Shown piece by piece: positions 24,448 through 39,948 of a DNA stretch of 64,000 nucleotides; positions within the stretch are counted from its first letter, which is position 1, and the number at the start of each line of letters is the position of its first letter. The stretch lies in the NCBI GenBank assembly GCA_965247095.1, contig OZ251997.1, positions 4,096,001 through 4,160,000 of the forward strand. The letters run 5' to 3'. The position numbers were made by a program, and so were the translations under genes. The notes below the pieces were generated by a model. The model made no database searches. It was not told the DNA's origin and worked only from the letters and a program-made list of their open reading frames with translations. Origin of the DNA: Candidatus Multivorans sp. Lineage in GTDB: Bacteria > Acidobacteriota > Thermoanaerobaculia > Multivoradales > Multivoraceae.

Positions 24448-24746
24448 GGCCCGCTCGCCGGGCCGAGGATGGGAGGGGTGAAGGCCTGGCGGTTACCTCG
24501 TCACCGACTCGGGACATGTGGTTGTCGGTCTCGACTCGCTGACGTTCGTGGCCGGATGTCCTTGGTGGTCTGGAAGGGCGGAGAGCCCCGAACACAAACG
24601 CTCGATGTAGGAGGAAGATGGCTCATGCGTTGGTGTGGAGTGCCGGAGCACCGAACAAGGCGAAGTCGTCACTCATGCGAGCAGGCTTGAAAACACACCG
24701 CTGTCTCCTGGCCAACTGAGCCACTTGGCTCGGCCACTACAATCCC

Positions 24747-24775
24747 TTGACACACTGGGCCTTCCGGTGCAGTAT
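24747..24775 (+). promoter_or_regulatory. Putative sigma70 promoter for the leader/aro-his-trp operon
   Basis: Perfect TTGACA 24747-52, 17-bp spacer, weak -10 CAGTAT 24770-75. Confidence 0.55.
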
Positions 24776-24820
24776 CCGGCCTCCTGGAGCCATTTCGGCC
24801 CGTTCCATCTGAACCACGCC

Positions 24821-24925
24821 ATGAACACACCGGCCCGCGACATCGCGATCTCGACCGTCTCCGTCGTCCCTGTGACCGGAGTCGCGTCGAAGGTCTGGTG
24901 GGCTCACGGTCACGGCAAGGGCTGA
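24821..24925 (+). CDS. Putative dual Trp/His attenuation leader peptide MNTPARDIAISTVSVVPVTGVASKVWWAHGHGKG
   Basis: 34 codons (17 if started at GTG 24872); TGG TGG at 24896-901, CAC at 24905 and 24911; stop 80 nt before the first gene of a his+trp operon. Confidence 0.75.
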   Translation: MNTPARDIAISTVSVVPVTGVASKVWWAHGHGKG

Positions 24926-25005
24926 ATCCGGGCCAAGTCCCGGTACGTTGTCCGGGACGAGGGTAAACGAGAAGACCTCCTTCCGGATCGAAGGAGGTCA
25001 TCAGT
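24926..25005 (+). promoter_or_regulatory. Attenuator with alternative hairpins; the final stem sequesters the Shine-Dalgarno of aroDE
   Basis: GACCTCCTTC 24974-83 pairs perfectly with GAAGGAGGTC 24990-99 (SD AAGGAGGT, 7 nt before TTG 25006); GTCCCGG/CCGGGAC 7-bp stem; competing pairings. Confidence 0.75.
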
Positions 25006-26547
25006 TTGAGTTCGACACCCGAGAATCCGCCGCGAGCCACCCTTGCGGAGGTCGCGCGGAGCGCAACCTTGGTGGCGTCGTTGACCGAGGCGCCCAGCGC
25101 GTCCGGCGACGAACTGCGCGCGCTGTCGGAGCGGGCCGACTGCCTCGAGGTGCGGGCGGACCTGGTCGGTGAGATCGGTGTCGAGTGGTTGCGGGAGCGG
25201 TTTGCCGGCGAGCTGCTCTACACGCTGCGGAGCGAGGCGGAAGGGGGCCGCGGACCGGTCGATGCGGGTCGGCGGGCGGAGCGGCTGGCTGCGGCCCGCG
25301 GGTACGACCTGGTCGATCTCGAGGCCGACCGCGATCTGGGCGCGGGCGTCCTCGCCTCGGTCGAGCCTGTCAGGCGGCTGGTGTCCTGGCACGGCCGCGG
25401 CGCCAGTCTCAAGGCGCTGCGAGGCCGGCTCAGACAGGTCTCGGGCGCGGAGGCGCGGCTCTACAAGCTCGTCACCACGCCGAAGAGGTCCGGCGAGGAA
25501 TTGGCGCCGCTCGAACTGCTGCTCGACACCGGCCGGCCGGATGTTGCCGCATTCTCGATAGGCGCCATAGGCGCCTGGACCCGGCAGGTGGCGCCAAGGC
25601 TCGGAGCACCCTGGATCTACGGCGCCGCGGGTTCGCTGGCCGCCGCCCCCGGTCAACCGTCCATCGAACGGCTGCGGGCCGACTACGGCCTGCCGAGCCT
25701 GCCCCGCGTGTCGCGGCTGTTCGGCGTCGTCGGGCACCCGGCGGCGCACAGCCTGTCGCCACGGCTCCACAACGCCGGCTATCGGGACCGCGGTGAGGCC
25801 GCGCTCTACGTCGCCTTCGACGCGCCTTCCTTCGAGACGTTCTGGAGCGAGATCGCGCGGAGCGACTTCTTTGAGCGCGCGGGGCTCCCCCTCAGCGGCC
25901 TGAGCGTCACCGCGCCGCACAAGGCGGCGGCTCTGGCCGCTTCTGCTGCGGCCGGCGACCTGGCGGTAGGAACCGGGGGCGCGAACACCCTGCTCCCGGG
26001 CCTCGGCGCCGCCGCCGACAGGCAGTGGCGGGCAGAGAGCACGGACCCGGAGGGGGTCGTGGGTCCGCTTCGCCGGCGCGGCGTCGAGCTTTCGGGCCGC
26101 ACTGCTGTGGTCATCGGCGCGGGCGGCGCCGGCCGTGCCGCGGCGGCGGGCCTGGCTGCCGCGGGTGCTGTGGTCGCGCTCGCCAACCGCACCGCCTCGA
26201 GCGGCCAGGCAGCCGCGGAGTCGCTCGGCACAGCCTTTGTTCCGCTCGACGAACTGGCGCCCGGCGCGTTCGATGTCGTCGTCAACGCCACCTCGCTCGG
26301 CCACGATCCGGCCGACCCGCTTCCCTGCGATCCCGACGCGCTGCGTGCCTCGGCTGCCGCGGTGGAACTGGTGTACGGCGGCGGACCGACACCCTGGAGC
26401 CGGGCCCTCCGAGCGCGCGGCATTCGGGTTGTGGACGGCCGGGAAGTGTTGCTGCACCAGGGTCTGGCGCAGTTCGAGGCGATGACGGGTAAGCCGCTTC
26501 CGTTCGAGGTCGGCGCCGCGGCCCTGGGATTGGAGGCGCCGCGATGA
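25006..26547 (+). CDS. aroDE: Bifunctional type I 3-dehydroquinate dehydratase / shikimate dehydrogenase (AroD-AroE fusion)
   Basis: CLEVRAD, YTLRSEAEGG, VSWH, AAPGQ (DHQase I); HSLSPRLHN, SVTAPHK, GAGGAGRA, VVNATSLG, LLHQGLAQF (SDH). Confidence 0.92.
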   Translation: MSSTPENPPRATLAEVARSATLVASLTEAPSASGDELRALSERADCLEVRADLVGEIGVEWLRERFAGELLYTLRSEAEGGRGPVDAGRRAERLAAARGYDLVDLEADRDLGAGVLASVEPVRRLVSWHGRGASLKALRGRLRQVSGAEARLYKLVTTPKRSGEELAPLELLLDTGRPDVAAFSIGAIGAWTRQVAPRLGAPWIYGAAGSLAAAPGQPSIERLRADYGLPSLPRVSRLFGVVGHPAAHSLSPRLHNAGYRDRGEAALYVAFDAPSFETFWSEIARSDFFERAGLPLSGLSVTAPHKAAALAASAAAGDLAVGTGGANTLLPGLGAAADRQWRAESTDPEGVVGPLRRRGVELSGRTAVVIGAGGAGRAAAAGLAAAGAVVALANRTASSGQAAAESLGTAFVPLDELAPGAFDVVVNATSLGHDPADPLPCDPDALRASAAAVELVYGGGPTPWSRALRARGIRVVDGREVLLHQGLAQFEAMTGKPLPFEVGAAALGLEAPR

Positions 26548-27539
26548 AGATCTCCGCCGGCCTGCCGACCGGAGTGTCGGCCGCTCTCTTCGACAGCGTG
26601 AAGCGCCGCCGCCGGCTGGAGGCGCGTTTGACCGCACTGCTCGAGGAGCGCGGCTTCGGCGAGGTGCTGCTGCCCATCCTCGACTACTTCGAGCCGTATC
26701 GGCCCCTGCTGCAGGGGCGCCGGCTGGAGCAGCTCTACCGCTTCGTCGACCGGGACGGTCAACTGCTCGTGCTGCGCGGCGATTTCACGCCGATGTTGGC
26801 GCGGCTGCTCGCCCCCCACCTGGACGACCTGGAACTGCCGCTCCGTCTGTATTACCGCGGCGACGTGGTGCGGCATCAGCCCTTGCGTCCCGGCCGGATG
26901 CGCGAGTACTCGCAGTTGGGCGCCGAGCTGCTGGGCGGCGACCGCACCGAGGCGGACGAGCGGATGCTGACCCTGTTCCTCGACCTGCTGCTACAGGCCT
27001 GCGGCGATGTCTCGCCCGCATCCGGCGACGACGCCGCGCTCCGGGTCGTCCTCGGCATCGCCGGCGCCCTCGACGAGCCCTTGCTCTCGGCGGCCGGAGA
27101 GGGCGCGGCCGGCGAACTGGCGCTGCGGATCGCAAGCCGCGACCGGCAGGCCGCGCGCCGGGCCGGTCTCGGCGATGTCGTAGAGCGTGGCTATCCGGAA
27201 GATCTCTCCGTGTTCGGGGACGCCGCCGATGCGGTGACTGAACTGCTCTTGCTCCGCGACCGGCTTTCCGCCGGGTACCGCGACCTTGGCATCGAGGTCG
27301 AGGTCGATCTCGCCGAGTTCGCCGCCGCCACTCTCGACCCGAGGGTCGGCGTTTCCGCGGGCACGCGCGGGTACTACGACGGCCTCATGTTCGCGGCCTA
27401 CGCGCCGGGTACCGCCCTGGCCTTGGGGGTTGGCGGCCGCTACGACAGGGTGTTCCGGTCGCTCAGCGGCGACTGCTCGGCGATCGGTTTCTCGTTCGGC
27501 CTCGACCTGCTGGTGGAACTGGAGGGGGTCGGAGCATGA
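26544..27539 (+). CDS. hisZ: ATP phosphoribosyltransferase regulatory subunit
   Basis: HisRS-like: YRFVDRDG...LRGDFTPMLAR, REYSQLGAELLG, YYDG, GGRYD, AIGFSF; precedes short hisG. Confidence 0.92.
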   Translation: MKISAGLPTGVSAALFDSVKRRRRLEARLTALLEERGFGEVLLPILDYFEPYRPLLQGRRLEQLYRFVDRDGQLLVLRGDFTPMLARLLAPHLDDLELPLRLYYRGDVVRHQPLRPGRMREYSQLGAELLGGDRTEADERMLTLFLDLLLQACGDVSPASGDDAALRVVLGIAGALDEPLLSAAGEGAAGELALRIASRDRQAARRAGLGDVVERGYPEDLSVFGDAADAVTELLLLRDRLSAGYRDLGIEVEVDLAEFAAATLDPRVGVSAGTRGYYDGLMFAAYAPGTALALGVGGRYDRVFRSLSGDCSAIGFSFGLDLLVELEGVGA

Positions 27540-28174
27540 TCACATTCGGCCTGCCGAAGGGACGCAACCTCGGACCGGCGCGCGACGCGCTTGCGGCCGC
27601 GGGCATGGGTCTCACCGATCTCGATGCCTCGCTTCTACGCCAGCGCTTCGGAGGCGTTGGGGTGTTGGGGGTCGAGGTCGAGGTGCTGCTGCTCAAGGAC
27701 TGGGACCTGCCGCTCTATGTCGAGCACGGGATCGTCGACTGCGCGATCATAGGCTCAGACGTGCTGGAGGAGACCCAGCCCGATGTCTTCCAGCCGTTGC
27801 GGCTCCTGGACGGCCGCAGCCGCCTGTCGCTGATTGCCCAGACGCCGGAACTGCCGCGGCGGAGCGGCCAGCTTCGGGCCGCGACGCGTTATCCGGCGTG
27901 GGCGGCGCGGCTTCTTGCCGCCCGCAACCTGCACGTCGAGGTGCTGAGCCTGACCAGCTCGATCGAACTCGGGCCGTTGCTCGATCTGACCGACATGGCG
28001 GTCGACATCGTGCAGACCGGCGCCACGCTCAAAACCCACGACCTGCACGAGGTCGAGGTGCTGGCTCAGGTGGCGCCGACCTTCGTGGTCAACCGGGCTT
28101 CGTTCCACGCCCACCGGCGCCGGCTGAGCCGGCTGCTGTGCGCGCTCGAAGAAGCGGGGGCCGCCGGTGACTGA
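27536..28174 (+). CDS. hisG: ATP phosphoribosyltransferase, short form
   Basis: LPKGR, DLPLYVEHG, GSDVLEE, ATRYP, SIELGP, DIVQTGATLK. Confidence 0.94.
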   Translation: MITFGLPKGRNLGPARDALAAAGMGLTDLDASLLRQRFGGVGVLGVEVEVLLLKDWDLPLYVEHGIVDCAIIGSDVLEETQPDVFQPLRLLDGRSRLSLIAQTPELPRRSGQLRAATRYPAWAARLLAARNLHVEVLSLTSSIELGPLLDLTDMAVDIVQTGATLKTHDLHEVEVLAQVAPTFVVNRASFHAHRRRLSRLLCALEEAGAAGD

Positions 28175-30599
28175 GCTCCGTAGTGGGGGAGCGTTGCAGG
28201 TCCTGGCGCCGGACAGCCGTGCCGGGCGGGAGCGCCTGGAACTCCTCGACCGGCGGGGCCGGGGCGGTGTCGCGGCCGAGATCGGCCATGCCGCCGCGGA
28301 GATCATAGGCCGGGTTCGCAGCGGTGGCGACGCGGCCCTGCTCGAAGCGGTGCGGCGCTACGACGGCTTCGACGCGCCGTCGGTCGCCGCCTTGCGACTG
28401 GGCGGCGCCCGCCCGCATCCGGCTTCCGAACGCATCGACCCCGACGTACTCACCGCCATCGATCGCGCCCGGGACGCCATTGAGGTCTACCACCGGGCAC
28501 AGCCGCACGGTCCGGGCGTCCAGCGCCTGGAACGGGACGGCGTGTCGATCGAGGAGCGCCGGCTGCCGATCCGCCGGGTCGGGATCTACGTGCCGGGTGG
28601 GCGGTTCGCTTATCCGTCGACGGTGCTGATGACCGCGGTGCCGGCACGGCTCGCGGGTGTCGAGGAGATCGTCGTCGCCACGCCGCCCCAGGCCTACCTC
28701 GAGAGCCCGGTGCTGCGGCACGTGCTCGACCTGGTCGAAGCGGACGAGGTCTGGGGCATGGGGGGCGCGCACGGCGTCGCGGCGCTCGCCTACGGCACCG
28801 AGTCCGTCCGGGCGGTCGACCTGATCGTCGGGCCCGGGAACGCCTGGGTGGCGGCCGCAAAGCAGTACGTGGCGGGCGACGTCGGCGTCGACCGCGACGC
28901 GGGTCCGTCGGAGGTCGTCATCGTGGCGACCGATGGCGCTCCCGCGGGCTGGGTTGCGGCCGACCTGCTCGCGCAGGCGGAGCACGATCCCCTGGCGGTC
29001 GCGGTCCTGGTCACGGACTCCGCGGCGCTTGCCGACCGGGTGGCGTCGGAGGTGGACCGGCAGCTCTCGCTGCTGCCGACCCGCGACACCGCCGCTGCCG
29101 CGCTCGAAGCGCACGGCGCGGCCTTCGTCACGGGCGACCTGGACGGCGCCCTCGCGCTTGCCGAACGGCTGGCGCCCGAGCATCTGCAACTGATCGGCGC
29201 GGCCGCGGAAGCGCGCGCGGACGAGGTGCGCAATGCCGGCGCCGTCTTCGTCGGCGCGTCTTCGCCTGTCGTGTTCGGTGACTACGTGGCCGGGCCCAGC
29301 CACGTGCTGCCCACGGGCGGCACCGCGCGCTTCGCCCCCGGTCTCGGGATAGAGGACTTCGTGCGGCGCAGTCACACGGTTCGCTTTTCCGGCGAGGCCT
29401 CGAAGGCTTGGGCCGGCGCCGCCGAGACCCTGGCGGCCACCGAGGGTCTGGCGGCCCATGCCGCGGCGGCGAGGTTGCGCCTGGGCCGAGGGAAAGAGCG
29501 CGGAGGAAGAGTCATGAGTGCCTCCGCCCGGGGCGCCGGCGCCTTCGTCAGGCCTGAGTTCCGCCGCCTGTCCGCCTACTCGCTCGACCGCGGGACGTAC
29601 CGCTACCGGCTCGATCAGAACGAGGCGCCGTGGGATCTGCCGCGGGCGCTCAAGCGCGAGGCGCTGGCGCGTCTGGCCGAGCGCACCTGGGCCCACTATC
29701 CGGACTTCCACGCCGAACGTCTGCGGCGTCTGCTCGGTGACCTCAACGACTGGCCGGCGGAGGGCGTTCTGGTCGGGAACGGTTCCGGCGAGCTGCTCAC
29801 CACGGTGCTCGAAGGCGTCGTGCGCCCCGGCCAGGAGGTGCTCGCCTGCGAGCCGTGCTTCGGTCTCTACGAGACCTTCGTCCGGCGGGCCGCGGGCGTG
29901 CCGCGATTCCTCGAACCGGCGCCGGACCTGGCGCTCCAGACCGGCGAACTCCAGGCCGAGATCGAGCGCGACCCGAGCCGGCCGGTGATCCTCTGCACGC
30001 CGAACAACCCGACCGGCACGGCTGCGGATCCCGCTACGGTGGAGCGCCTTCTGGGCGCGCTCGAGGCGCCGCTGCTGCTCGACAACGCGTACGGCGAGTT
30101 CTGCCGCCACGACTACCGGCCGCTGCTGCGCCGCCACCCGAACCTGATCGTGTTCCGGACCCTGTCCAAGGCCTGGTCCCTGGGCGGCATCCGTCTCGGC
30201 TACCTGCTTGCGGACCCGGACCTGGTGACGGAACTGATCAAGGTCAAGCTGCCCTACAACATCGGTCATGCGGCGGCGGTCATCGGCGAAGTGGCGCTCG
30301 AACACGCCGACCGGCTTCTGCCGCGCGTCGCCCTGGTGCGGGCGCGCCGGGAGCAGTGGATGGTCATGCTGCGGGAGTTCGGTTTCGAGGTACTCGACTC
30401 GGAGGCCAACTTCCTCCTCGCACGCCACCCCCGCTGCGCCGAGATCCGCATGGGTCTCGCCGACGGTGGGGTCCTGGTTCGGGACGTGAGCCGCTACCCG
30501 GGTTTGGCCGACTGCATGAGGATCGGAATCGGCGGCGGTCCGGCGCTGCGCGCCACGCGACGCGCGCTGGCGGGAATGAACGGGGGAGAGAAGCCATGA
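28167..30599 (+). CDS. hisD-hisC: Histidinol dehydrogenase fused in frame to histidinol-phosphate aminotransferase (HisC part from ATG 29514)
   Basis: HisD: [41 protein letters not shown]; HisC: [40 protein letters not shown]. Confidence 0.9.
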
Positions 30600-31201
30600 G
30601 ACGAGCGGCCATCGATCGCAAGACATCCGAAACCCGGATCCGCGCCGAGTTGTCGCTCGACGGCGGCCCGTGCCGGCTTGATGTGCCGAACGGTTTCTTC
30701 TCGCACATGCTGGACGCCCTCTCGCGTCACGGCGGTCTGGGGCTCGACCTCGAAGCCCGCGGCGATACAAACATCGACCTTCACCACACGGTGGAGGACA
30801 CAGGCATCGTGCTCGGCGAGGCGCTGCGAGAGGCCCTGGGCGACCGGGCCGGCGTGCGGCGCTTCGCCTACGCATTCGCGCCGCTCGACGAGGCGTTGGC
30901 ACGCGCCGTGATCGACCTCTCGGGCCGCGGTTCCTTCCACTTCCGGCTGCCCGCGGACCTGGAGCAGGCATGGGTCACGACCGAGTTCCCGCTCACCCTG
31001 ATGGGTGACTTCTTCGGCGCCTTCGCCGACCGCGGGCGGCTGACGCTGCACCTGGACGTCCTCTGCGGCCGCAACCCGCACCACGTCGCCGAGGCGTCGT
31101 TCAAGGCGGTGGCTCTGGCGCTGCGTGACGCGGTGTCCCTGCGGCCTGACGCCGGGGGCGGCGCCGAGGCGCCGAGCACGAAGGGGAGCCTGACGGCATG
31201 A
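30596..31201 (+). CDS. hisB: Imidazoleglycerol-phosphate dehydratase (monofunctional)
   Basis: RKTSET, FFSHML, DLHHTVEDTG, PLDEAL, NPHHVAEASFK, PSTKG. Confidence 0.96.
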   Translation: MRRAAIDRKTSETRIRAELSLDGGPCRLDVPNGFFSHMLDALSRHGGLGLDLEARGDTNIDLHHTVEDTGIVLGEALREALGDRAGVRRFAYAFAPLDEALARAVIDLSGRGSFHFRLPADLEQAWVTTEFPLTLMGDFFGAFADRGRLTLHLDVLCGRNPHHVAEASFKAVALALRDAVSLRPDAGGGAEAPSTKGSLTA

Positions 31202-31884
31202 CCGGCGTTGCGAGCAGCGCCCCGGCGAGCAGAGCGACGGTGGTCGACGCCGGCGTCGGCAACATCGGCAACCTGGTGCGGGCGCTCCGCCACCTGAGGT
31301 CCGAAGTCGAAATCACCTGCGATCCGGAGGCGATTCGTAAGGCTCGCTGCCTGGTGCTGCCGGGCGTCGGCGCTTTCCGGCCGCCGCGCGAGGTTCTGCG
31401 CGGCGCTGCCGAAGAGGCAATCAGCACGGCACTCGGGAACGGCGCGTACCTGCTCGGCATCTGTATCGGCTACCAGCTCCTGTTCGACAGCAGCGAGGAG
31501 TTCGGCATGACGGACGGTCTCGGCCTGCTCGCGGGCCGTGTCACCCAGTTGCCGGGCGGCGTGCCCCTGCCTCACATCGGCTGGAACCGCGTCTTCGGCA
31601 CAGCAAACCATCCCCTCCTCGCCGGCGCAGCCGAGGACGACCACTACTACTTCGTCCACTCCTTCGCGCCGGAGGACGTGCCGGAGGAGTCCGTGCTGGG
31701 ACGCTCCCGTCACGGCCGCAGTTTCCCCGCGATCACGGGCCGCGGGCGCATCGCGGGTACCCAGTTTCATCCCGAGAAGAGCGGCGCCGCCGGCCTGCGG
31801 CTGCTGCGCAACTACCTGGCCTGGGCGGGCGACCTGGCCGATGGGGTCGAAGGAGGCGACGGTGCAACTGCTGCCGGCAATTGA
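31198..31884 (+). CDS. hisH: Imidazole glycerol phosphate synthase glutaminase subunit
   Basis: LPGVGAF, LGICIGYQ, PHIGWN, YFVHSF, QFHPEKS. Confidence 0.96.
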   Translation: MTGVASSAPASRATVVDAGVGNIGNLVRALRHLRSEVEITCDPEAIRKARCLVLPGVGAFRPPREVLRGAAEEAISTALGNGAYLLGICIGYQLLFDSSEEFGMTDGLGLLAGRVTQLPGGVPLPHIGWNRVFGTANHPLLAGAAEDDHYYFVHSFAPEDVPEESVLGRSRHGRSFPAITGRGRIAGTQFHPEKSGAAGLRLLRNYLAWAGDLADGVEGGDGATAAGN

Positions 31885-32617
31885 CCTGCGCGGCGGTCAG
31901 GTCGTGCGTCTCGAACGCGGCGACGACGGGCGCCGCACGGTCTACGACGCCGATCCGGGCAATGCGCTGCGCCGCTGCCGCGAGGCGGGGGTGTCCCGCA
32001 TCCACGTCGTCGATCTGGACGCGGCGTTCGGCGGTGCCCCCCAGCGCGAAGTCGTCGAGGCGCTGGTTCAGCAGGCAGCCCCCACCGGCATCCAGCTCGG
32101 CGGCGGCCTGCGTGACCGCGAGTCCGTCGAGTGGGCCTTCGCGGCGGGCTGCGAACGGGCGGTGGTGACCTCCCTCATCGTTCGCGACTTCGACGTGTTC
32201 ACCGGCCTCTGTCGCGACTACCCGGGGCGCATGGTGGCGGCGCTTGACATCGACCGCGGCGAAGTGCGGCTGGCGGGCTGGACCGAATCGGCCGACCGCT
32301 CGCCCGCGACGCTGTGCGAGCAGCTTGCCGGTCTGCCGATCGCGGCGGTGCTGGTCACCGACATCTCGCGGGACGGGATGATGCAGGGCCCGAACATCGA
32401 CCTCGCCTGCGAGATCGGCGCCATGGCCGGCGCGCCGGCGATCCTCTCGGGCGGCGTACGGTCGGCGGCCGACCTGGAAGCCGCGGCCCGGCGGCCCGAA
32501 CTCGAAGCCGCGATCGTCGGCCGCGCGCTCTACGACGGTTCGCTGACCTTGGGCGAGGCGCTCGCCGCCTGCGGCGGAGCGGGAACGCCCGCCGCCGCTA
32601 CCGGAGGCGCGTCATGA
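31862..32617 (+). CDS. hisA: ProFAR isomerase
   Basis: [44 protein letters not shown]; GTG start 31862. Confidence 0.95.
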
Positions 32618-33405
32618 GAGCCACCATCGAGCCGACCGGCCTCACCCGCCGCATCATCCCCTGTCTGGACGTGGCCGCCGGGCGGGTGGTCAAGGGCGTC
32701 CAGTTCAAGAACCTGACTGATCACGGCGACCCGACCGAGGCCGCGGCCCGCTACGCCGCGGAGGGCGCCGACGAGATCGTCTTCCTCGACATCACCGCCG
32801 CGCCCGAGCGCCGCGACACGGACCTCGACTGGGTGCGCCGGACCGCCGAGCAGGTGTTCATTCCGCTCAGCGTCGGCGGTGGCGTGCGCAGCACAGGCGA
32901 CGGCCGCAAGTTGCTCCTCGCCGGCGCCGACAAGCTGGGGATCAACACCGCCGCGGTCGCCGAACCGGAGCTGCTCACGCGCCTCGCCGAGCGCTTCGGG
33001 AGCCAGTGCGTCGTGCTCTCGGTCGACGCCAAACGGCGGCTAGAAGACGGGGCCGAGAACCAGAGTTGGGAGGTCGTCACCCACGGCGGCCGCACGCCGA
33101 CCGGGCTCGATGCAATCGAGTGGATCGAGAAGGGAATCGAACGGGGCGCCGGCGAGATCCTGCTCACCAGCATCGACAGCGACGGCATGAAGAGCGGCTA
33201 CGACCTGGAACTGCTGCGCCGGGCGTCCGCGCTGTCGCCGGTGCCGGTCATCGCCTCCGGCGGCGCCGGCACCCTGGAGCACCTGGCGGAGGCCCTGGAG
33301 ACCGACGCCGCGGCGGTGCTCGCCGCCTCGATCTTCCACCAGTCCACGTACTCCGTGGGCGCGGTCAAGGAGTACCTTGGCCGCCGCTTTCCGATCCGCA
33401 TGTGA
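32614..33405 (+). CDS. hisF: Imidazole glycerol phosphate synthase cyclase subunit
   Basis: [50 protein letters not shown]. Confidence 0.97.
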
Positions 33406-33428
33406 TGAGGAATCGAGGAGACCAAGAG

Positions 33429-34082
33429 ATGACAGCGACGGCGATCGACCCTGCGGCGCTCACCTACGACGACCGGGGCCTCCTGCCCGTCGTGGTCCAG
33501 GACGTGCTCTCGGGCGCGGTGCTGATGCTTGCCTACGCCAACCGGGAGGCGGTGGAACTCACACTCGCCAGCGGCGAGGCCCACTTCTACAGCCGCTCGC
33601 GGCAGGAGCTTTGGCGCAAGGGCGCGACCTCGGGCAACACCCTGGCGGTGGTCGAAGTGCTCCAGGACTGTGACCGGGACGCCCTCCTGGTTCGAGCGCT
33701 GCCGGCCGGTCCTGCCTGCCACAACAACACGAGGAGCTGCTTCGAACCGAACGCCGCCGAGTTCGAGCTCGGCTGGCTGGCGCGTGTGATCGCCGAGCGG
33801 GCGTCCGCTCCGCCGGAGGAGAGCTACACGGCCCGTCTCCTCGACCAGGGAGTCGACCGGATCGCACGCAAGGTCGCGGAGGAAGCGGGCGAGACCGTGA
33901 TCGCCGGCGTCCGGGCCGACGCGGCGCCCGAGTCCGCCGAGCGCCGCGGGGATCTCGCGGCCGAAGTCGCCGATCTCGCCTACCACCTGCTGGTGCTGCT
34001 GCAGGCGACCGGCGTCGGGATCGCCGACGTGGCGGCTGAGCTGGGTCGCCGCCATCAGCAAGCCGGGGGAACGCAGCCATGA
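33429..34082 (+). CDS. hisIE: Bifunctional PR-AMP cyclohydrolase / PR-ATP pyrophosphatase
   Basis: SRSRQELWRKGATSGN, DCDRD, PACH...SCF; SYTARL, KVAEEAGE, EVADLAYH. Confidence 0.95.
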   Translation: MTATAIDPAALTYDDRGLLPVVVQDVLSGAVLMLAYANREAVELTLASGEAHFYSRSRQELWRKGATSGNTLAVVEVLQDCDRDALLVRALPAGPACHNNTRSCFEPNAAEFELGWLARVIAERASAPPEESYTARLLDQGVDRIARKVAEEAGETVIAGVRADAAPESAERRGDLAAEVADLAYHLLVLLQATGVGIADVAAELGRRHQQAGGTQP

Positions 34083-35575
34083 GCCGGCCCGCATCCGCCA
34101 TCGCCCACACGCGGGAGTTCCTGGCCGACACGTCGACGCCGCTCGGCGTCTACAGCAAGCTGGCCGCGCATGCGGAGGGCGACTCCGGGGCGCGGCGCTT
34201 TCTGCTCGAGAGCATCACCGGTGGCGAGCACGTATCGCGCTACAGCTTCCTCGGCGCGAGCCCGTCGCAGGTCTGCCGGGTGTACCTCAACCGGCTCGAG
34301 ATCGAGGATCTCCGTTCCAGGGGCGGCGTTCAGGTGCAAGCCGGCGATCCGCTGCCGAAGCTGCGGCAACTGCTCGACGGTGTGACCGCGGATCCGCCGC
34401 CGCCGTTGCCGTTTGCCGGCGGCTGGATCGGCGCCTTCGGCTTCGACGCGATCCGGCTCGTCGAGCCGTGTCTGGTCGACCATCCGGCCGGCCGCCCACC
34501 GGACCCGTTCGGCCTGCCTATCGCCACCCTGGCCCGCTTCGACGACGTGCTCGTGTTCGATCACGCCCGCCAGCGGATCGTCGCGGTGGCGAACGAGATC
34601 ACGGGCGAGACGACGGCGGCGGAGGCCGAAGCGCGGCTCGATGAACTGCAGGCGGTCCTTGAGAGCCGCGGCGAGGCCACGGCGGCCCGGGTCGAGGACA
34701 TGGGTGTTTTGGCGGAGACTGCCGCCCCGACGCTGAGCGACGAAGAGTACGGCCGGGCAGTGATGGCGGCGAAGGAGTACATCGCCGCCGGCGACATCTT
34801 CCAGGTTGTGCTGGCACGCCGCTGGACTCTCGACCTCGACGTGTCGCCGGCGACCCTCTACCGGGCGCTGCGGTTGGTCAATCCGTCGCCGTACATGGTC
34901 CTGTTCGAGGCGCCCGAGGCGTCGTTGATCGGCGCTTCGCCGGAGATGCTGGTGCGGCGCACGGGGCGGCGCCTCGAGGTGCGGCCGATTGCCGGCACCC
35001 GCCCCCGCGGCAGGACCGCGGCGGAGGACCGCGCTCTGGCCGAGGAACTGATGGCCGACCCCAAGGAGCGCGCGGAACACGTGATGCTGGTCGACCTGGG
35101 GCGCAACGACCTCGGACGGGTGGCGTCGCCGGGCGGGGTCTCGGTGGCCGACTTCATGGTCATCGAGCACTACAGCGACGTGATGCACATCGTCAGTTCG
35201 GTCGAGGCCGAACAGTCCGCCGCGGCCGGAAACGGCGCCGGTTCGGCCCTCGACGCCCTCCTGGCCTGCTTCCCGGCCGGCACGCTGTCCGGGGCGCCGA
35301 AGATCCGCGCGGTGGAGATCATCGACGAACTCGAGCCGGAGGCGCGCGGGATGTACGGGGGCTCGGTGGGCTACTTCTCATTCGGCGGCGACATGGACAC
35401 CTGCATCACGATCCGCACCCTGACCCTGGCGAACGGCGAGGCCTCGATCACCGCCGGGGCCGGCATCGTCGCCGATTCCGACCCGGTGCGCGAGGCGCAG
35501 GAGACCCGCGACAAGGCCGCGGCGCTGCTGCGGGCGGTGGCGCTGGCGCGCGACCTGGAGGACCGCCGGGCATGA
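34079..35575 (+). CDS. trpE: Anthranilate synthase component I
   Basis: FLLES, GDIFQVV, NPSPYM, GASPE, PIAGTRPRG, KERAEHVMLVDLGRND, GTLSGAPK. Confidence 0.96.
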   Translation: MSRPASAIAHTREFLADTSTPLGVYSKLAAHAEGDSGARRFLLESITGGEHVSRYSFLGASPSQVCRVYLNRLEIEDLRSRGGVQVQAGDPLPKLRQLLDGVTADPPPPLPFAGGWIGAFGFDAIRLVEPCLVDHPAGRPPDPFGLPIATLARFDDVLVFDHARQRIVAVANEITGETTAAEAEARLDELQAVLESRGEATAARVEDMGVLAETAAPTLSDEEYGRAVMAAKEYIAAGDIFQVVLARRWTLDLDVSPATLYRALRLVNPSPYMVLFEAPEASLIGASPEMLVRRTGRRLEVRPIAGTRPRGRTAAEDRALAEELMADPKERAEHVMLVDLGRNDLGRVASPGGVSVADFMVIEHYSDVMHIVSSVEAEQSAAAGNGAGSALDALLACFPAGTLSGAPKIRAVEIIDELEPEARGMYGGSVGYFSFGGDMDTCITIRTLTLANGEASITAGAGIVADSDPVREAQETRDKAAALLRAVALARDLEDRRA

Positions 35576-36150
35576 TCCTCGTCATCGACAACTACGACTC
35601 CTTCACCTACAACTTGGTCCAGATATTCGGCGGTCTCGGCGCCGAACTCGAGGTGGTGCGCAACGATGTCGAGAGCGTGCCGGACCTGCTGGCGCGCGAC
35701 CCGGAAGGCATCGTCCTGTCGCCGGGGCCGGGCCGGCCGGAGGACGCGGGAGTCTGCATCGACCTCCTGCGGGCGCAACCCGACGTGCCCCTGCTCGGCG
35801 TTTGCCTGGGACACCAGGCGCTCGGCTCGGCATTCGGCGGCACCGTCAGCCGGGCGAAGGTCCTGATGCACGGCAAGACCTCCGAAGTCGAGCACCGGGG
35901 GGTGGGCTTGCTGTCCGGCCTGCCTTCGCCCTTCGTCGCCACGCGCTACCACTCGCTGGCGGTCGAGGAGGAGAGCCTGCCGGCACAGCTTCAGCCGCTG
36001 GCCTGGAGCGAGGACGGAACGCTCATGGCGATGCGGCACCGGGAACTGCCCTACTGGGGCGTCCAGTTCCATCCGGAGTCGGTGCTCACCGGCAGCGGAC
36101 CGCAGCTACTTCAGAACTTTCTCGATCTGTGCGGAGAGGCCAATGACTGA
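35572..36150 (+). CDS. trpG: Anthranilate synthase component II
   Basis: IDNYDSFTYNL, SPGPG, GVCLGHQ, RYHSL, QFHPES. Confidence 0.96.
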   Translation: MILVIDNYDSFTYNLVQIFGGLGAELEVVRNDVESVPDLLARDPEGIVLSPGPGRPEDAGVCIDLLRAQPDVPLLGVCLGHQALGSAFGGTVSRAKVLMHGKTSEVEHRGVGLLSGLPSPFVATRYHSLAVEEESLPAQLQPLAWSEDGTLMAMRHRELPYWGVQFHPESVLTGSGPQLLQNFLDLCGEAND

Positions 36151-37183
36151 TCTCGACCTTTCGACCCTGTTGCGAACGGCCATCGCCGGCGAGGACCTTC
36201 CCGCCACGACAGTGGAGGAGCTGTTCGGCCGGCTGATGGACGGCGAACTGTCCGAGGTGTGGAAGAGCGCGTTTCTGGTCGCGCTGGCGGCGAAGGGCGA
36301 ATCGGTGGGTGAGATCGCCGGCGCCGCACGGGCGATGCGGGCGCGGGCCTCCGGGGTGCCGCACACGAGTTCCGGCGTGATCGACACCTGCGGCACCGGC
36401 GGCGACGGCCGGGGCACGTTCAACATCTCGACCGCGGCCGCGCTGGTGGCGGCTGCGTGCGGCGCGCGGGTGGCCAAGCACGGCAACCGCGCCGTGTCGA
36501 GCCGCTCCGGCTCGGCGGACGTACTCGACGCTCTCGGCGTGCGGCTCTCGGGCGACACGGAGGCTCTCGGACGCTGCCTCGACGACGTCGGCATCGCCTT
36601 CCTGTTCGCGCCCATGCTCCACCCGGCTATGGCCCAGGTCATGCCGGTGCGGCGCGAGCTCGGCGTGCGCACGCTGTTCAACGTGCTCGGGCCGATGACC
36701 AACCCGGCCGGGGCGAAGCGTCAGTTGATCGGCGTCTTCGCGGCCGGTCTGGTCGAAAAGGTCGCGCGCGTGCTGCGGGATCTCGGAAGCGAGCACGCCC
36801 TGGTCGTCCACGGCGACGGTCTCGACGAGATCACGACCACCGGGACGACTGCGGTTGCCGAGGTACGGGACGGCGACGTGCGCACCTTCGAAGTTCATCC
36901 ACGCGACTTCGGGATCGCCGAGGCGGCGCCGGAGGATCTCCTCGGCGGCGGCCCCGAGCGGAACGTCGAGCTGATGGGCGACGTGCTCGCCGGAGGCGAG
37001 GGGCCGCTGGCCGACATCACCTGTCTCAACGCCGGGGCCGCGCTCTTTGTCGCCGGCAGGGCGGACGGCCTCGCCGCCGGTGTCGCCGCCGCGTTCGAGG
37101 TGCAGCGTTCGGGAGCGGCAGCCAGGAAGCTCGAAGAGCTCGCCGGCTGGGACGGCTGGGACGACGGAGGCGGCGGAGACTGA
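36143..37183 (+). CDS. trpD: Anthranilate phosphoribosyltransferase
   Basis: DTCGTGGDG, NIST, KHGNRAVSSRSGSAD, RTLFNVLGP, GLDE. Confidence 0.97.
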   Translation: MTDLDLSTLLRTAIAGEDLPATTVEELFGRLMDGELSEVWKSAFLVALAAKGESVGEIAGAARAMRARASGVPHTSSGVIDTCGTGGDGRGTFNISTAAALVAAACGARVAKHGNRAVSSRSGSADVLDALGVRLSGDTEALGRCLDDVGIAFLFAPMLHPAMAQVMPVRRELGVRTLFNVLGPMTNPAGAKRQLIGVFAAGLVEKVARVLRDLGSEHALVVHGDGLDEITTTGTTAVAEVRDGDVRTFEVHPRDFGIAEAAPEDLLGGGPERNVELMGDVLAGGEGPLADITCLNAGAALFVAGRADGLAAGVAAAFEVQRSGAAARKLEELAGWDGWDDGGGGD

Positions 37184-37187
37184 GGCC

Positions 37188-38090
37188 ATGTCCGAGGTTC
37201 CCGACATCCTGCGGCGCATCTGCGAGCAGCGGCGCCGGCGCGTCTCGCCCGCATCCGGCTCCGGCTTCGGCCCCGCCTCGCCACGCCTCGCCCCCGACGC
37301 GCCCGGCCGCCGTTTCCTCGACGCGATCGAGGCCCGTCGCGGCCGCGCCGTCATCGCCGAGATCAAGATGGGATCGCCCAAGCTCGGCGACCTCAGGGGA
37401 CGCTTCGATCCGGTCGCCCGGGCAGAGACCTACGCGGCCGCCGGCGCCGCCTGCCTGTCGGTGGTGGTCGAGCCGGACCACTTCTTCGGCAGCTACGAGC
37501 TGCTCGCGGACTGCGCCGCCGCCTCCGGCCTGCCCGCGGTGGCGAAGGACTTCGTCGTCTCCGACGTACAGCTCGAATGGGCGCGAGACGCCGGCGCCTC
37601 CGCGGTGCTCCTGATCGCCGCGCTCTACCACGCCGCGGAGTTGCGGCGGCTGGCGGCGCTCGCCCGGGGCTTGGGCCTGGTGCCCCTGATCGAGACCCAC
37701 GACGACGAGGACTTCGAGAAGCTGGCCCCCCTGGGAGCGCAGGCCGCCAGCCCGCTTCCGGCCCTGGGAACGCGGGCTTCCAGCCCGCATCCGGGTCGCC
37801 CGCAACGCGGCAGTGAGGCCCCAGACTGGGAACTCGTCGGCATCAACAACCGCGACCTGCGCACCTTCGAGGTCGACCTGGAACGAAGCGCCGACCGCGT
37901 CGGCCGCCTCCCGGCGTCGGCTCTCAAGGTCGCCGAGTCGGGGATTCAAACGGGCGCCGATGTCGCCAGGCTGCGTCGGGCCGGTTTCGACGCGTTCCTC
38001 ATCGGCGAGCGCCTGGTGCTCTCCGGCGACCCGGCGGCCGCGCTCGCCGAACTGCTGGGCGACCCGGCAACATCGGGAGCGACCCCATGA
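37188..38090 (+). CDS. trpC: Indole-3-glycerol phosphate synthase with about 30-aa repeat-derived insertion
   Basis: [39 protein letters not shown]. Confidence 0.93.
37729..37794 (+). repeat. Two tandem 33-bp REP-like units in frame within trpC
   Basis: CCCTGGGAGCGCAGGCCGCCAGCCCGCTTCCGG plus CCCTGGGAACGCGGGCTTCCAGCCCGCATCCGG, matching the intergenic repeat family. Confidence 0.85.
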
Positions 38091-38728
38091 AGGTCAAGGT
38101 CTGCGGGGTCACCACGCCCGACGACGCCCGGCTCGCGGTCGATCTCGGCGCCGACTTCGTCGGCCTCAACTTCTACCGTCCCAGCCCACGCTGGATCGAC
38201 GTCGACCAGGCCGCGCGCATCCGCCGCGCCGTCGGCGACCGGGCACAAGCCATCGGCATCTTCGTCAACCACACCCGCGACGAGGTCGCTTTGATCGACC
38301 GGCAGGTTGGCCTCGACTTCCTCCAGTTCAGCGGCGACGAGAGCCCGGAACTTGTCGCCGAGTTCAGGGACCGCGCGATCCGTGTCCGCCGCGTCGGTGG
38401 CGCGGCTACCGTTGCAGCCCGGATTCCCGAGGAGGACTGCTGGGCGGTCCTGATCGACCGCGCCCACGATCGGCTCTACGGCGGTTCCGGCGAGAGCTGG
38501 GACTACGCGGCGGCGGCCGATCTCGCTCTGACGCAGCCCGGCGGCAGGTCGCGACGCGTGTTCATCGCCGGCGGCATCGGCCCCGGCAACATCGCCCAGG
38601 TCGCGGCGGCCGTGCCCGGCGCCTACGCCGTCGATACCTGTTCGGGCGTCGAGTCCTCGCCCGGACACAAGGACCGCGCCAAGCTGGAGCAGTTGTTCGC
38701 CAACCTGGCAGAGGGAGCAGCACGATGA
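38087..38728 (+). CDS. trpF: Phosphoribosylanthranilate isomerase
   Basis: [43 protein letters not shown]. Confidence 0.95.
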
Positions 38729-39948
38729 AGGTAAGAACACCCCTCTCCGCCGCGGCCATGGAACCGGACGAGGGCGGCCGCTACGGCGTCTACGGCGGGC
38801 GCTACGCCCCCGAGACCCTGATGGCGCCGCTCGAGGAGCTGAGCCGCGCCTATGACCGGCTGCGGCGAAAGCGCGCCTTTCAGCGCCGGCTGAAGGACCT
38901 GCTGGAGCACTACGTCGGCCGCCCGACGCCGCTCTACTTCGCCGAGCGCCTGACCGAGCACCTCGGCGGCGCGCGCATCTACCTGAAGCGGGAAGACCTG
39001 CTCCACACCGGCGCGCACAAGATCAACAACGCCCTCGGCCAGGTGCTGCTGGCGAAGGAGATGGGCAAGACCCGGATCATCGCCGAGACCGGCGCCGGCC
39101 AGCATGGCGTTGCCACTGCCACGGCCGCCGCTCTCCTCGGTCTCGACTGCGTCGTCTACATGGGCGAGGAGGACATGCGTCGCCAGCGCCTGAACGTCTA
39201 CCGGATGCAGCTTCTGGGCGCGGAGGTGGCGCAGGTCGATGCCGGCAGCCGGACGCTCAAGGACGCGATCAACGAGGCGTTCCGGGACTGGGTGGCGAGC
39301 TTTGCCGACACCCACTACGTGCTCGGCACGGTCACCGGGCCGGCGCCCTATCCGCGGATGGTGCGGCAGTTCCACAGCGTGATCGGTGCCGAGGCGCGGC
39401 GCCAGTTGAAGCGGCAGACCGGCACCGCACATCCGGATGTCGCGATCGCCTGCGTCGGCGGCGGCAGCAACGCGATGGGCCTGTTCTCCGCATTCTTCGA
39501 CCGTCCCGACGTGCTGCTGGTCGGCGTCGAGGCCGGCGGGCGGGGACCGGATCTGGGAGATCACGCCGCGCGGTTCTCGGGGGGCACGCTCGGCGTGCTC
39601 CACGGCGCCCGCACGCTCGTGCTCCAGGACGAGGAGGGCCAGGTCGTCGGCACCCACTCCGTGTCCGCCGGGCTCGACTACCCGGCGGTCGGCCCCGAGC
39701 ACGTGTTCCTGCACGAGCACGGGCAGATCGAGTTCACGTCGGCCACCGACCAGGAGGCGATCGACGCCTTTCACCTGCTGTCGTCGATGGAGGGCATCCT
39801 GCCCGCGCTCGAATCGGCGCATGCCATCGCCGAGGTCATCCGCCGCGCGCCCGGGATGGGCGAGGACCAGATCATGCTCGTCAACCTCTCCGGCCGCGGC
39901 GACAAGGACGTGGAGTCGGTGCTTGAATACGACGGAGCGACCAAATGA
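38725..39948 (+). CDS. trpB: Tryptophan synthase beta chain
   Basis: [59 protein letters not shown]. Confidence 0.98.

What the first reader, a model, noticed from the sequence alone, without database searches (positions are those of the whole stretch)
24821..25008. Single leader peptide apparently sensing both Trp and His to control a merged his+trp operon
Seen: a short ORF (24821-24925) whose only Trp and His codons cluster near the stop as W26-W27-A-H29-G-H31. It lies between a TTGACA promoter candidate and a 16-ORF operon encoding both pathways. Five segments follow the stop: A CCGGG 24928-32, B GUCCCGG 24937-43, C CCGGGACGAGG 24952-62, D GACCUCCUUCCGG 24974-86, E GAAGGAGGUC 24990-99 (contains the SD of aroDE). 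Pairings read by eye: A:B 5 bp, B:C 7 bp, C:D about 10 bp with one mismatch and one GU, D:E 10 bp perfect. Established: trpL and hisL leaders act by ribosome stalling, normally one pathway per operon, and multivalent leaders such as thrL and ilvL sense metabolically linked amino acids. Inference: a ribosome reaching the stop covers A, so B:C and D:E form and the SD is hidden (OFF). Stalling at WW or either His leaves A free, so A:B and C:D form and the SD is exposed (ON). This would be an OR gate for two separate PRPP-consuming pathways. I do not know of a described Trp+His leader but cannot check the literature.
Basis: partly seen in the sequence, partly recalled or inferred. Interest (0 to 1): 0.93.

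Follow-up and report, generated by a model that had tools for sequence, protein, structure and literature searches.

The report
Leader peptide sensing tryptophan and histidine
A tiny upstream reading frame with clustered tryptophan and histidine codons, followed by switchable RNA hairpins, most likely lets one control element turn a 16-gene histidine-plus-tryptophan operon on when either amino acid runs short.

Summary
A 34-codon ORF (24821-24925) with W26, W27, H29 and H31 lies between a conserved promoter and an aroDE-his-trp operon. It is followed by the five segments at the stated coordinates.

- A covariance model of the RNA finds one copy in 111 of 151 genomes of the same order (uncultured Acidobacteriota, Thermoanaerobaculia). 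It finds none in 147 genomes of other orders.
- Leader peptides diverge completely except for the Trp/His cluster.
- Codon content tracks operon content. All 40 his+trp operons have leaders with at least 1 Trp and at least 2 His codons. Six of 11 trp-only operons have no His codon. The one his-only operon has His codons only.
- Where the his genes left the operon, the His codons were replaced by near-neighbour codons, mostly one substitution away.

Amendments:
- In most other families the last hairpin is a true terminator with a U tract. In the window's genus the tract is eroded, so occlusion of the ribosome-binding site may dominate there.
- The A:B helix is weak in the window, and equilibrium folding does not reproduce the switch.

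There is no experimental evidence. I rate it a new variant of multivalent leader-peptide attenuation.

The parts
24747..24752 (+). -35 box TTGACA of the operon promoter
   Evidence: Read. TTGACA, followed 16-18 nt later by a TnTAAT-like -10, is conserved upstream of the leader ORF in most rows.
24770..24775 (+). -10 box CAGTAT (TCTAAT in close relatives)
   Evidence: The site was not called by the simple scan.
24821..24925 (+). Leader ORF, 34 codons plus TGA
   Evidence: An ORF ending in the same Trp/His motif is found in all 25 same-genus loci. It is also found in 62 of 67 loci with more than 65% AroDE identity.
24896..24901 (+). Regulatory Trp codons W26 and W27
   Evidence: At least one Trp codon occurs in the last 14 codons of all 40 his+trp and all 11 trp-only leaders, and none in the his-only leader.
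24905..24913 (+). Regulatory His codons H29 and H31 (CAC GGT CAC)
   Evidence: All 40 his+trp leaders have at least 2 His codons, while 6 of 11 trp-only leaders have none. Decay to neighbouring codons is shown.
24928..24932 (+). Segment A; pairs with B when not covered by a ribosome
   Evidence: A:B is 5 bp, -8.1 kcal/mol. CCGGG is present in all 40 same-genus rows printed, while the flanks vary. The A:B helix is 5-10 bp in 70 rows, mean 7.3 against 4.6 in shuffles.
24937..24943 (+). Segment B; pairs with A or with C
   Evidence: For B:C, 98.6% of 511 cells pair, 3 pairs change on both sides, and slid controls give 18-65%.
24952..24962 (+). Segment C; pairs with B (OFF) or with D (ON, anti-terminator/anti-sequestor)
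   Evidence: For C:D, 85.3% of 797 cells pair, counting one position that never pairs. Slid controls give 45-65%, and 4 pairs change on both sides.
24974..24986 (+). Segment D; 5' arm of the OFF hairpin, or partner of C
24990..24999 (+). Segment E; 3' arm of the OFF hairpin, holding the SD GGAGG (24993-24997)
   Evidence: The D:E hairpin is present in 73 of 73 rows with many compensatory pair types. An SD-like word in the 3' arm with a start codon 3-12 nt downstream is found in 49 of 73 rows.
25000..25008 (+). Weak U-rich tail and TTG start codon of aroDE (25006-25008)
   Evidence: The window's tail has few T. At least 4 T in the first 5 nt is seen in 42 of 57 rows from other genera, but in 1 of 14 rows of the window's genus.
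25006..40775 (+). Controlled operon: aroDE, hisZ, hisG, hisD-hisC, hisB, hisH, hisA, hisF, hisIE, trpE, trpG, trpD, trpC, trpF, trpB, trpA
   Evidence: ORFs; Pfam matches. The same gene order is found in 40 long loci of relatives.

Best explanation
This is a ribosome-mediated, bivalent (Trp + His) leader-peptide attenuator. It controls a fused shikimate-histidine-tryptophan operon in an uncultured member of the Acidobacteriota, class Thermoanaerobaculia.

**Proposed mechanism.**
- Transcription starts at a conserved TTGACA/TnTAAT promoter, and the 34-codon leader is translated.
- When charged tRNA-Trp and tRNA-His are plentiful, the ribosome runs to the stop codon and covers segment A, which begins 3 nt after the stop. 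B then pairs with C, and D pairs with E.
- D:E is an intrinsic terminator in most relatives. In aroDE-first operons such as this one, it also buries the Shine-Dalgarno sequence, with the TTG start just downstream. Either way the result is OFF.
- When either charged tRNA is scarce, the ribosome stalls at the Trp or His codons, 4-9 codons before the stop. A stays free and pairs with B, C pairs with D, and E with its SD stays open. The result is ON.
- Starvation for either amino acid should therefore de-repress all 16 genes. This is the same logic as multivalent attenuation in the thr and ilv leaders.

**Shown here:**
- the ORF, the helices and their conservation or covariation;
- one copy of the element per genome;
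- the match between the codon set of the leader and the gene set of the operon.

**Inferred:**
- that the ORF is translated, and that stalling occurs;
- which level (termination or translation initiation) dominates in the window's genus, where the U tract is eroded;
- that the weak A:B helix is enough kinetically.
For: **1. The anatomy is confirmed at the stated coordinates**.

**2. Distribution.**
- Covariance model R1 finds the RNA in 111 of 151 genomes of the order, with one copy in all but two of them (G041 and G048 have two), and in 11 of 12 families.
- In a draw from the phylum it finds only 2 of 151, both from this order.

**3. Peptide conservation.** Outside the genus the peptides share no sequence except a Trp cluster followed by a His cluster near the stop. 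In all 51 leaders that have both, the Trp codons lie upstream of the His codons.

**4. Codon identity is what is conserved.** In 68 distinct leader tails there are 128 TGG, 96 CAC and 93 CAT. His identity is kept rather than a nucleotide word.

**5. Codon set tracks gene set** in 59 long loci.
- his+trp operons: 40 of 40 leaders have at least 1 Trp and at least 2 His codons in the last 14 codons (means 1.85 and 3.42).
- trp-only operons: 11 of 11 have Trp. His count is 0 in 6, 1 in 2, and 2 or more in 3.
- The one his-only operon (L169) has 4 His and no Trp.

**6. Decay of the His codons.** Within one genus and within one family, the three His codons of his+trp relatives are replaced at homologous positions in trp-only relatives. 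They become Gln-Arg-Leu (L165) or Gln-Pro-Tyr (L182, L166, L167). Each replacement is one substitution from CAY, except the Arg codon, which is two.

**7. Loss of the His pathway.** Histidinol dehydrogenase (PF00815) was not found in 3 of 5 trp-only genomes (95-97% complete). All three have leaders without any His codon.

**8. RNA helices.**
- D:E is present in 73 of 73 rows, with compensatory pairs. One example column reads C-G 61, U-A 9, U-G 2.
- B:C: 98.6% of cells pair, and the covariation score is reached by 0 of 500 shuffles.
- C:D: 85.3% pair, against 45-65% when slid. Four pairs change on both sides, reached by 1 of 500 shuffles.

**9. Footprint-masked folding of 70 relatives shifts as predicted**.
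- Ribosome at the stop codon: B:C forms in 47 rows and C:D in 23.
- Ribosome at the first Trp/His codon: A:B forms in 46 rows and C:D in 47.

**10. Terminator and SD.** At least 4 T in the first 5 nt after the stem occurs in 42 of 57 rows from other genera. SD plus a start codon 3-12 nt after the 3' arm occurs in 49 of 73 rows, with TTG in 44.

**11. The promoter is conserved**.
Against: - **No direct evidence.** There are no expression, ribosome-occupancy or reporter data. The only RNA run that held related sequence gave two contigs inside aroDE of a relative and nothing over the leader.
- **Folding of the window does not switch.** Equilibrium folding with the footprint masked at W26, W27, H29, H31 or the stop keeps B:C and D:E every time. 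A:B + C:D (-23.7 kcal/mol) is less stable than B:C + D:E (-32.7).
- **The masking result across relatives is only a tendency.** With the ribosome at the last Trp/His codon, C:D forms in 34 of 70 rows. With no ribosome it forms in 35 of 70.
- **Covariation in B:C and C:D is modest**, because the arms are highly conserved. Related sequences can beat shuffles without any structure.
- **No visible SD for the leader.** No Shine-Dalgarno precedes the leader ATG in the window.
- **Exceptions to the codon rule.** Three of 11 trp-only operons still have 2 or more His codons (L148, L158, L168). I read them as relics, but they do not fit the codon/gene rule.
- **Method cautions.** The leader frame was chosen as the one richest in Trp/His among frames stopping at the motif start, which favours high counts. 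Relatives are not independent samples.
- **Weak U tract in the window**. The simple scan called no terminator on the + strand.
Confidence: 0.8

Rival explanations
1. It is an ordinary Trp-only leader (trpL-like). The two His codons are incidental, and histidine supply has no effect.
For: - Trp codons are present in every leader of an operon that contains trp genes (51 of 51).
- In the window there are only two His codons, and they are not adjacent.
- Three trp-only operons keep 2 or more His codons, so His codons can persist without his genes.
Against: - All 40 his+trp operons have at least 2 His codons in the last 14 codons (mean 3.42, expected about 0.28). Six of 11 trp-only operons have none.
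- The his-only operon has a His-only leader on the same RNA scaffold (L169).
- The His codons are replaced by near-neighbour codons exactly where the his genes left the operon.
- Both CAC and CAT are used (96 and 93), so amino-acid identity is what is kept.
Confidence: 0.07
2. The ORF encodes a functional small peptide, for example a metal-binding Trp/His tail. The hairpins are only a terminator or stabiliser, not a ribosome-sensed switch.
For: Within the genus the last nine residues are almost invariant, and the N-terminal part is moderately conserved.
Against: - Across families nothing but the Trp/His cluster is kept, and length varies from 24 to more than 40 codons.
- The ORF always ends 3-10 nt before segment A.
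- It always precedes the same mutually exclusive helices.
- Its amino-acid content follows the pathway genes downstream, which a free-standing peptide function would not predict.
Confidence: 0.04
3. The switch is real, but something other than the translating ribosome reads it: a protein, an uncharged tRNA (T-box-like) or a small ligand. The ORF would be fortuitous.
For: Equilibrium folding with ribosome masks does not flip the window's structure. No SD precedes the leader ATG.
Against: - There is no match to any Rfam family, T-box included, even at E-value up to 10.
- The RNA between the stop codon and the SD is only about 70 nt of simple hairpins.
- An open frame with an ATG, a stop placed at segment A and a Trp/His cluster is kept in 70 of 73 rows. 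Two of the three exceptions are a GTG start (L003) or an ATG beyond the 150-nt search window (L177).
- In several families the -10 box lies 8-11 nt before the ATG, which would allow leaderless initiation.
Confidence: 0.05

Closest known systems
Escherichia coli trp operon leader (trpL) transcription attenuator
   Same: Both have a short leader ORF with tandem Trp codons near its end, mutually exclusive hairpins whose choice depends on where the ribosome sits, and a GC-rich hairpin before the first structural gene. (The textbook mechanism is recalled. The general description of such attenuators was read as passages in PMC9413887 and PMC1183508.)
   Different: - There is no sequence or model similarity: no Rfam Trp_leader hit.
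- His codons are added.
- The operon also carries nine his ORFs and aroDE.
- The chain of helices is longer (A:B, B:C, C:D, D:E, plus a possible upstream partner of A).
- In the window the U tract is weak, and the hairpin holds the SD.
Enterobacterial his operon leader (hisL)
   Same: Both have a run of His codons in the leader. From recall, the hisL chain of six segments has two alternative registers, which resembles Z:A / B:C / D:E versus A:B / C:D here.
   Different: Here there are 2-5 His codons rather than seven in a row, they are combined with Trp codons, and there is no Rfam His_leader hit. The phylum is also different.
Multivalent leaders thrL (Thr + Ile) and ilvL/ivbL (Ile, Leu, Val)
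   Same: One leader peptide carries regulatory codons for more than one amino acid, so shortage of any one relieves attenuation (recalled).
   Different: Those amino acids are products of branches of one pathway. Here the two products come from separate pathways that share only PRPP and glutamine use and happen to be encoded in one operon. I found no Trp+His leader in the papers searched.
Attenuators and T-boxes that sequester the ribosome-binding site instead of terminating (Actinobacteria, some Firmicutes)
   Same: The regulatory hairpin contains the SD of the first gene. PMC9413887 (passages read) states that in some attenuators the terminator is replaced by an RBS-sequestering structure. 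PMC1262725 (passages read) describes SD-sequestering T-boxes and the LEU element.
   Different: Here the same hairpin is both things in most relatives: a U-tract terminator and an SD sequestor. Only in the window's genus has the U tract decayed.
Leaderless Cys-rich short ORF attenuators of mycobacteria (bioRxiv 10.1101/834739; abstract seen in a search listing only)
   Same: A short ORF with clustered codons of one amino acid controls downstream operon genes. In several families here the -10 box lies 8-11 nt before the leader ATG, which suggests a leaderless start.
   Different: In the window's genus the -10 box is 45 nt upstream of the ATG. The amino acids and the phylum also differ.

Membership tests
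Ribosome-mediated leader-peptide attenuator (functional class) | Short ORF just upstream of an amino-acid biosynthetic operon, with clustered codons for the operon's product(s) | tested here: met
   The cluster is kept in relatives and follows operon content.
Ribosome-mediated leader-peptide attenuator (functional class) | Mutually exclusive RNA helices that overlap or directly follow the end of the ORF | tested here: met
   The helices are named and their energies computed. B:C, C:D and D:E are conserved with compensatory changes. The A:B helix is 5-10 bp in 70 rows.
Ribosome-mediated leader-peptide attenuator (functional class) | Intrinsic terminator (GC hairpin plus U tract) before the first structural gene | tested here: inconclusive
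   Met in 42 of 57 rows from other genera, but in only 1 of 14 rows of the window's genus. The window's own tail is poor in T, and the scan called no + strand terminator. The hairpin itself is present.
Ribosome-mediated leader-peptide attenuator (functional class) | Expression responds to charged-tRNA supply through ribosome stalling at the regulatory codons | not testable with these tools
   No usable RNA or Ribo-seq data. Footprint-masked folding is only suggestive.
Translational attenuator (SD sequestration) | The OFF helix contains the SD and/or start codon of the first gene, and the ON helix frees it | tested here: met
   GGAGG 24993-24997 lies in the 3' arm, with TTG 8 nt downstream. The same layout is found in 49 of 73 rows. 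It is not met where hisZ or trpE is the first gene and starts further away.
Rfam Trp_leader / His_leader / T-box families | Match to the curated covariance model | tested here: not met
   cmscan of 24300-25300 at E-value up to 10 gave only a chance snoRNA match at E 9.9.
Multivalent attenuation | Regulatory codons for two or more amino acids in one leader, each matched by genes in the controlled operon | tested here: met
   Trp and His codons are both present with trp and his genes in 40 of 40 operons. Loss of one gene set goes with loss of that codon set in 6 of 11 trp-only operons and in the 1 his-only operon.

The most novel reading that the evidence does not exclude
This is a previously undescribed family of bivalent Trp/His leader-peptide attenuators, confined as far as the model can see to one order of uncultured Acidobacteriota.
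- A single hairpin serves as both intrinsic terminator and ribosome-binding-site sequestor.
- The regulatory codon set is re-coded in step with operon fission and pathway loss: His codons decay when the his genes leave, and Trp codons disappear in the his-only operon.

This would be a natural evolutionary series showing how an attenuator's specificity is written and erased. It would also be the first case of one leader coupling two biosynthetically separate amino acids.
Probability: 0.65. Interest if true: 0.72.

Novelty: new variant of a known kind. Interest (0 to 1): 0.66.

Why it matters
Leader-peptide attenuation is a textbook mechanism. It is documented almost only in Proteobacteria, Actinobacteria and a few Firmicutes.

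From recall, known multivalent leaders couple amino acids of one branched pathway. Here one leader appears to couple two separate pathways that were merged into a single 16-ORF operon.
- This predicts that histidine starvation induces tryptophan enzymes, and the reverse.

The relatives add something rarer: a built-in evolutionary control.
- Where the his genes left the operon, the His codons decayed. In three of the five trp-only genomes checked, histidinol dehydrogenase was not found at all.
- The Trp codons and the whole RNA scaffold stayed.

That makes the specificity of an attenuator readable from sequence alone. It also gives a rule for annotating operon regulation in uncultured Acidobacteriota. 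[quoted passage not shown]

The hairpin that is both terminator and SD sequestor, with the terminator half eroding in one genus, also shows a possible route from transcriptional to translational attenuation.

Tried and rejected
- **Rfam** scan of 24300-25300 at E up to 10: nothing relevant.
- **Simple promoter/terminator scan:** no promoter, and no + strand terminator. The D:E hairpin was called only on the - strand, where a T-rich run follows it. I take that as a by-product of the palindrome, since no gene ends there on that strand.
- **MAFFT alignments A1 and A2** mis-register the 3' arm of D:E in many rows. The model-fitted alignments A3 and A4 still do so for some rows. I therefore did not use the count of structure pairs for D:E or A:B. 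I read each row's own hairpin instead.
- **A3** also holds weak reverse-strand matches (E above 0.01) and was not used for counts.
- **Equilibrium folding with ribosome footprints masked:** for the window the structure does not switch. Across 70 relatives it shifts only partly. I keep this as weak support, not as a demonstration.
- **Sequencing runs:** one metatranscriptome held a small share of the stretch. Laid on 24600-26000, it gave two contigs of about 200 nt inside aroDE at 90-95% identity and none over the leader. As contigs, they cannot show starts or ends, so there is no evidence either way on expression.
- **Literature:** seven searches found no Trp+His leader and no his-trp operon.
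  - Passages were read in PMC9413887, PMC1262725, PMC4833913, PMC2965389 and PMC1183508.
  - PMC2387123 is not held.
  - Subscription-journal surveys of attenuators that I recall, by Vitreschak et al. and Lopatovskaya et al., could not be read. Supplementary files were not consulted. A prior mention there cannot be excluded.
- **** failed on my own frame check and was repeated correctly.
- **Rows dropped before counts:**
  - L160: leader cut by the contig end.
  - L003, L107 and L177: no in-frame ATG within 150 nt, so they are absent.
  - Two rows with a mis-parsed multi-hairpin terminator (L176, L147) are absent.
- **How the 60 long loci were chosen:** they are 60 of the 92 non-genus places listed. 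I chose them for contig room and family spread, before their leaders were read.
Full report
**What is in the window**

The ORF at 24821-24925 (+) gives a 34-residue peptide whose only Trp and His residues are W26, W27, H29 and H31.

The helix energies are as follows:

| Helix or combination | Energy (kcal/mol) |
|---|---|
| A:B | -8.1 |
| B:C | -14.4 |
| C:D | -15.6 |
| D:E | -18.3 |
| B:C + D:E | -32.7 |
| A:B + C:D | -23.7 |

- The free RNA folds into B:C plus D:E, with z = -3.45 against shuffles.
- GGAGG (24993-24997) lies in the 3' arm of D:E, 8 nt before the TTG start of the first gene.

Pfam assigns the downstream ORFs to a fused dehydroquinase/shikimate dehydrogenase (aroDE), followed by these genes:
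- hisZ, hisG, hisD-hisC (one ORF), hisB, hisH, hisA, hisF, hisIE;
- trpE, trpG, trpD, trpC, trpF, trpB, trpA.

All are on one strand from 25006 to 40775. No Rfam family matches the leader region.

**Who carries it**

Relatives found through AroDE come from records titled as metagenome-assembled genomes. The titles name Candidatus Multivorans, Thermoanaerobaculia, Holophagales or Acidobacteria.

Within the genus:
- All 25 loci have an ORF ending in the same Trp/His tail.
- So do 62 of 67 loci with more than 65% AroDE identity.
- The five exceptions are two rows with Trp-Arg in place of Trp-Trp, one fragment, one deletion of most of the ORF (L051) and one replaced upstream region (L080).

Within the genus the stems are almost invariant and the loops vary. 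Strain variants seen in metagenome contigs at 24933-24936 and 24965-24967 also fall in loops.

I built a covariance model, R1, on B:C and D:E.
- It finds the element in 111 of 151 genomes of the order, with one copy in all but two of them (G041 and G048 have two).
- These genomes represent 11 of 12 families. One family is almost empty, at 1 of 22.
- In a draw from the phylum it finds the element only in two genomes of this same order, and in none of the 147 from other orders.

**The peptide**

Outside the genus the leaders share nothing but a cluster of one to four Trp codons, followed within a few codons by two to five His codons. The cluster ends two or three codons before the stop in 50 of 68 distinct tails.
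- Trp always precedes His (51 of 51).
- His is written with CAC 96 times and CAT 93 times. What is conserved is the amino acid, not a nucleotide word.

**Codon set follows gene set**

I fetched about 19.8 kb downstream of 60 of the 92 non-genus places. They were chosen for contig room and family spread. Fifty-nine could be classified.

| Operon type | Loci | Trp codons in last 14 | His codons in last 14 |
|---|---|---|---|
| his+trp | 40 | at least 1 in all 40 | at least 2 in all 40 |
| trp-only | 11 | at least 1 in all 11 | 0 in six, 1 in two, 2 or more in three |
| his-only | 1 | 0 | 4 |

- Six further loci begin with his genes but end at a contig edge.
- In one further locus only aroDE is seen before the contig ends.
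- The expectation from the operon's own proteins is about 0.1 Trp and 0.3 His per 14 codons.

The six His-free trp-only leaders come from four families.

The replaced codons line up with the His codons of his+trp relatives:
- In one genus, the three His codons of the his+trp members read Gln-Arg-Leu at the same positions in the trp-only member.
- In another family they read Gln-Pro-Tyr.
- All of these are one substitution from a His codon except the Arg codon, which is two away.

Histidinol dehydrogenase was not found in three of five trp-only genomes (95-97% complete). Those three have no His codon in the leader. The two genomes that keep the enzyme elsewhere include one that keeps three His codons.

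I regard this as the strongest evidence that both codon sets are functional. Two cautions apply:
- Relatives are not independent.
- The frame was picked as the one richest in Trp/His.

**The RNA**

- D:E is present in all 73 rows of the model alignment, with many compensatory pair types.
- B:C pairs in 98.6% of cells and C:D in 85.3%. The C:D figure includes one position that never pairs. Both fall to 18-65% when the partner is slid, and both have a few double-sided changes.
- A potential A:B helix of 5-10 bp exists in all 70 rows tested. It is usually 7-9 bp, but 5-6 bp in the window's genus.
- Masking a ribosome footprint moves the predicted fold of truncated transcripts in the expected direction, but not cleanly. 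For the window it does not move at all. The switch there would have to be kinetic.
- Without a ribosome, the Val-Trp codons can pair with A. This would keep the untranslated RNA OFF.

**Termination or translation?**

- After the GC stem, 42 of 57 rows from other genera have at least four T in five. That is a classic terminator. Only 1 of 14 rows of the window's genus does.
- In 49 of 73 rows the 3' arm holds an SD-like word, with a start codon (TTG in 44) 3-12 nt downstream.
- Where hisZ or trpE is the first gene, the start is often further away.

I conclude that the family is a transcription attenuator whose terminator also hides the ribosome-binding site of aroDE. In the window's genus the second role may have become the main one.

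**Promoter**

TTGACA, a 16-18 nt spacer and a TnTAAT-like box are conserved upstream of the leader.
- In the window the -10 box is 45 nt before the ATG, and no SD is visible.
- In several other families it is only 8-11 nt before the ATG, which suggests leaderless initiation.

**Known or new**

Seven full-text searches and passages of five papers gave no Trp+His leader and no his-trp operon.
- Older subscription-journal surveys could not be read.

The mechanism class is textbook, and multivalent leaders are known. I therefore rate this a new variant of a known kind, with good comparative support and no experimental support.

Noticed in passing
window 28167-30599 (+): hisD and hisC lie in one 810-codon ORF, with histidinol dehydrogenase at residues 38-439 and the aminotransferase at 481-788. 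This may be a fused bifunctional enzyme. It was not compared with relatives.
   Followed up: no
L169 (genome G036) and L188 (G065): The same RNA scaffold precedes a his-only gene run (hisZ to hisA). In L169, no hisF, hisIE or trp genes appear in the next 13 kb. Its leader has four His and no Trp codons in the tail. L188, from the same genus, is alike but its contig ends.
   Followed up: partly
L145-L204 upstream regions (for example L147, L180, L146, L193): In several families the -10 box lies only 8-11 nt before the leader ATG, so the leader peptide may be translated from a leaderless or nearly leaderless mRNA. In the window's genus the distance is 45 nt.
   Followed up: partly
L107, and G041 / G024 second copies: Some genomes of the genus carry a second aroDE copy with its own copy of the element, about 25 kb away. 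In L107 the upstream ATG is out of frame with the Trp/His tail, and stem C has a substitution. This may be a decaying duplicate.
   Followed up: partly
L051 and L080: These are natural variants in assembled genomes. L051 lacks most of the leader ORF but keeps the promoter and all hairpins. L080 has the upstream region replaced up to segment C. Either could be an assembly artefact.
   Followed up: no
L027, L081-L084, L088, L152-L154: In one family the element sits between aroDE and hisZ, so aroDE is outside the attenuated unit. In other lineages aroDE is absent from the locus.
   Followed up: partly
window 41611-42726 (+): This ORF combines a diphthamide-synthase-like ATP-binding domain (PF01902) with an AraC-type helix-turn-helix. 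It is an unusual domain pairing, located just downstream of the operon.
   Followed up: no
window 24974-24999 (-): The D:E palindrome followed by a T-rich run is called terminator-like on the minus strand. No minus-strand gene was shown to end there.
   Followed up: no
genomes G029, G150, G163: Histidinol dehydrogenase (PF00815) was not found in three genomes that are 95-97% complete and have trp-only operons. They may be histidine auxotrophs. Only one family model and one HisG query were used.
   Followed up: partly
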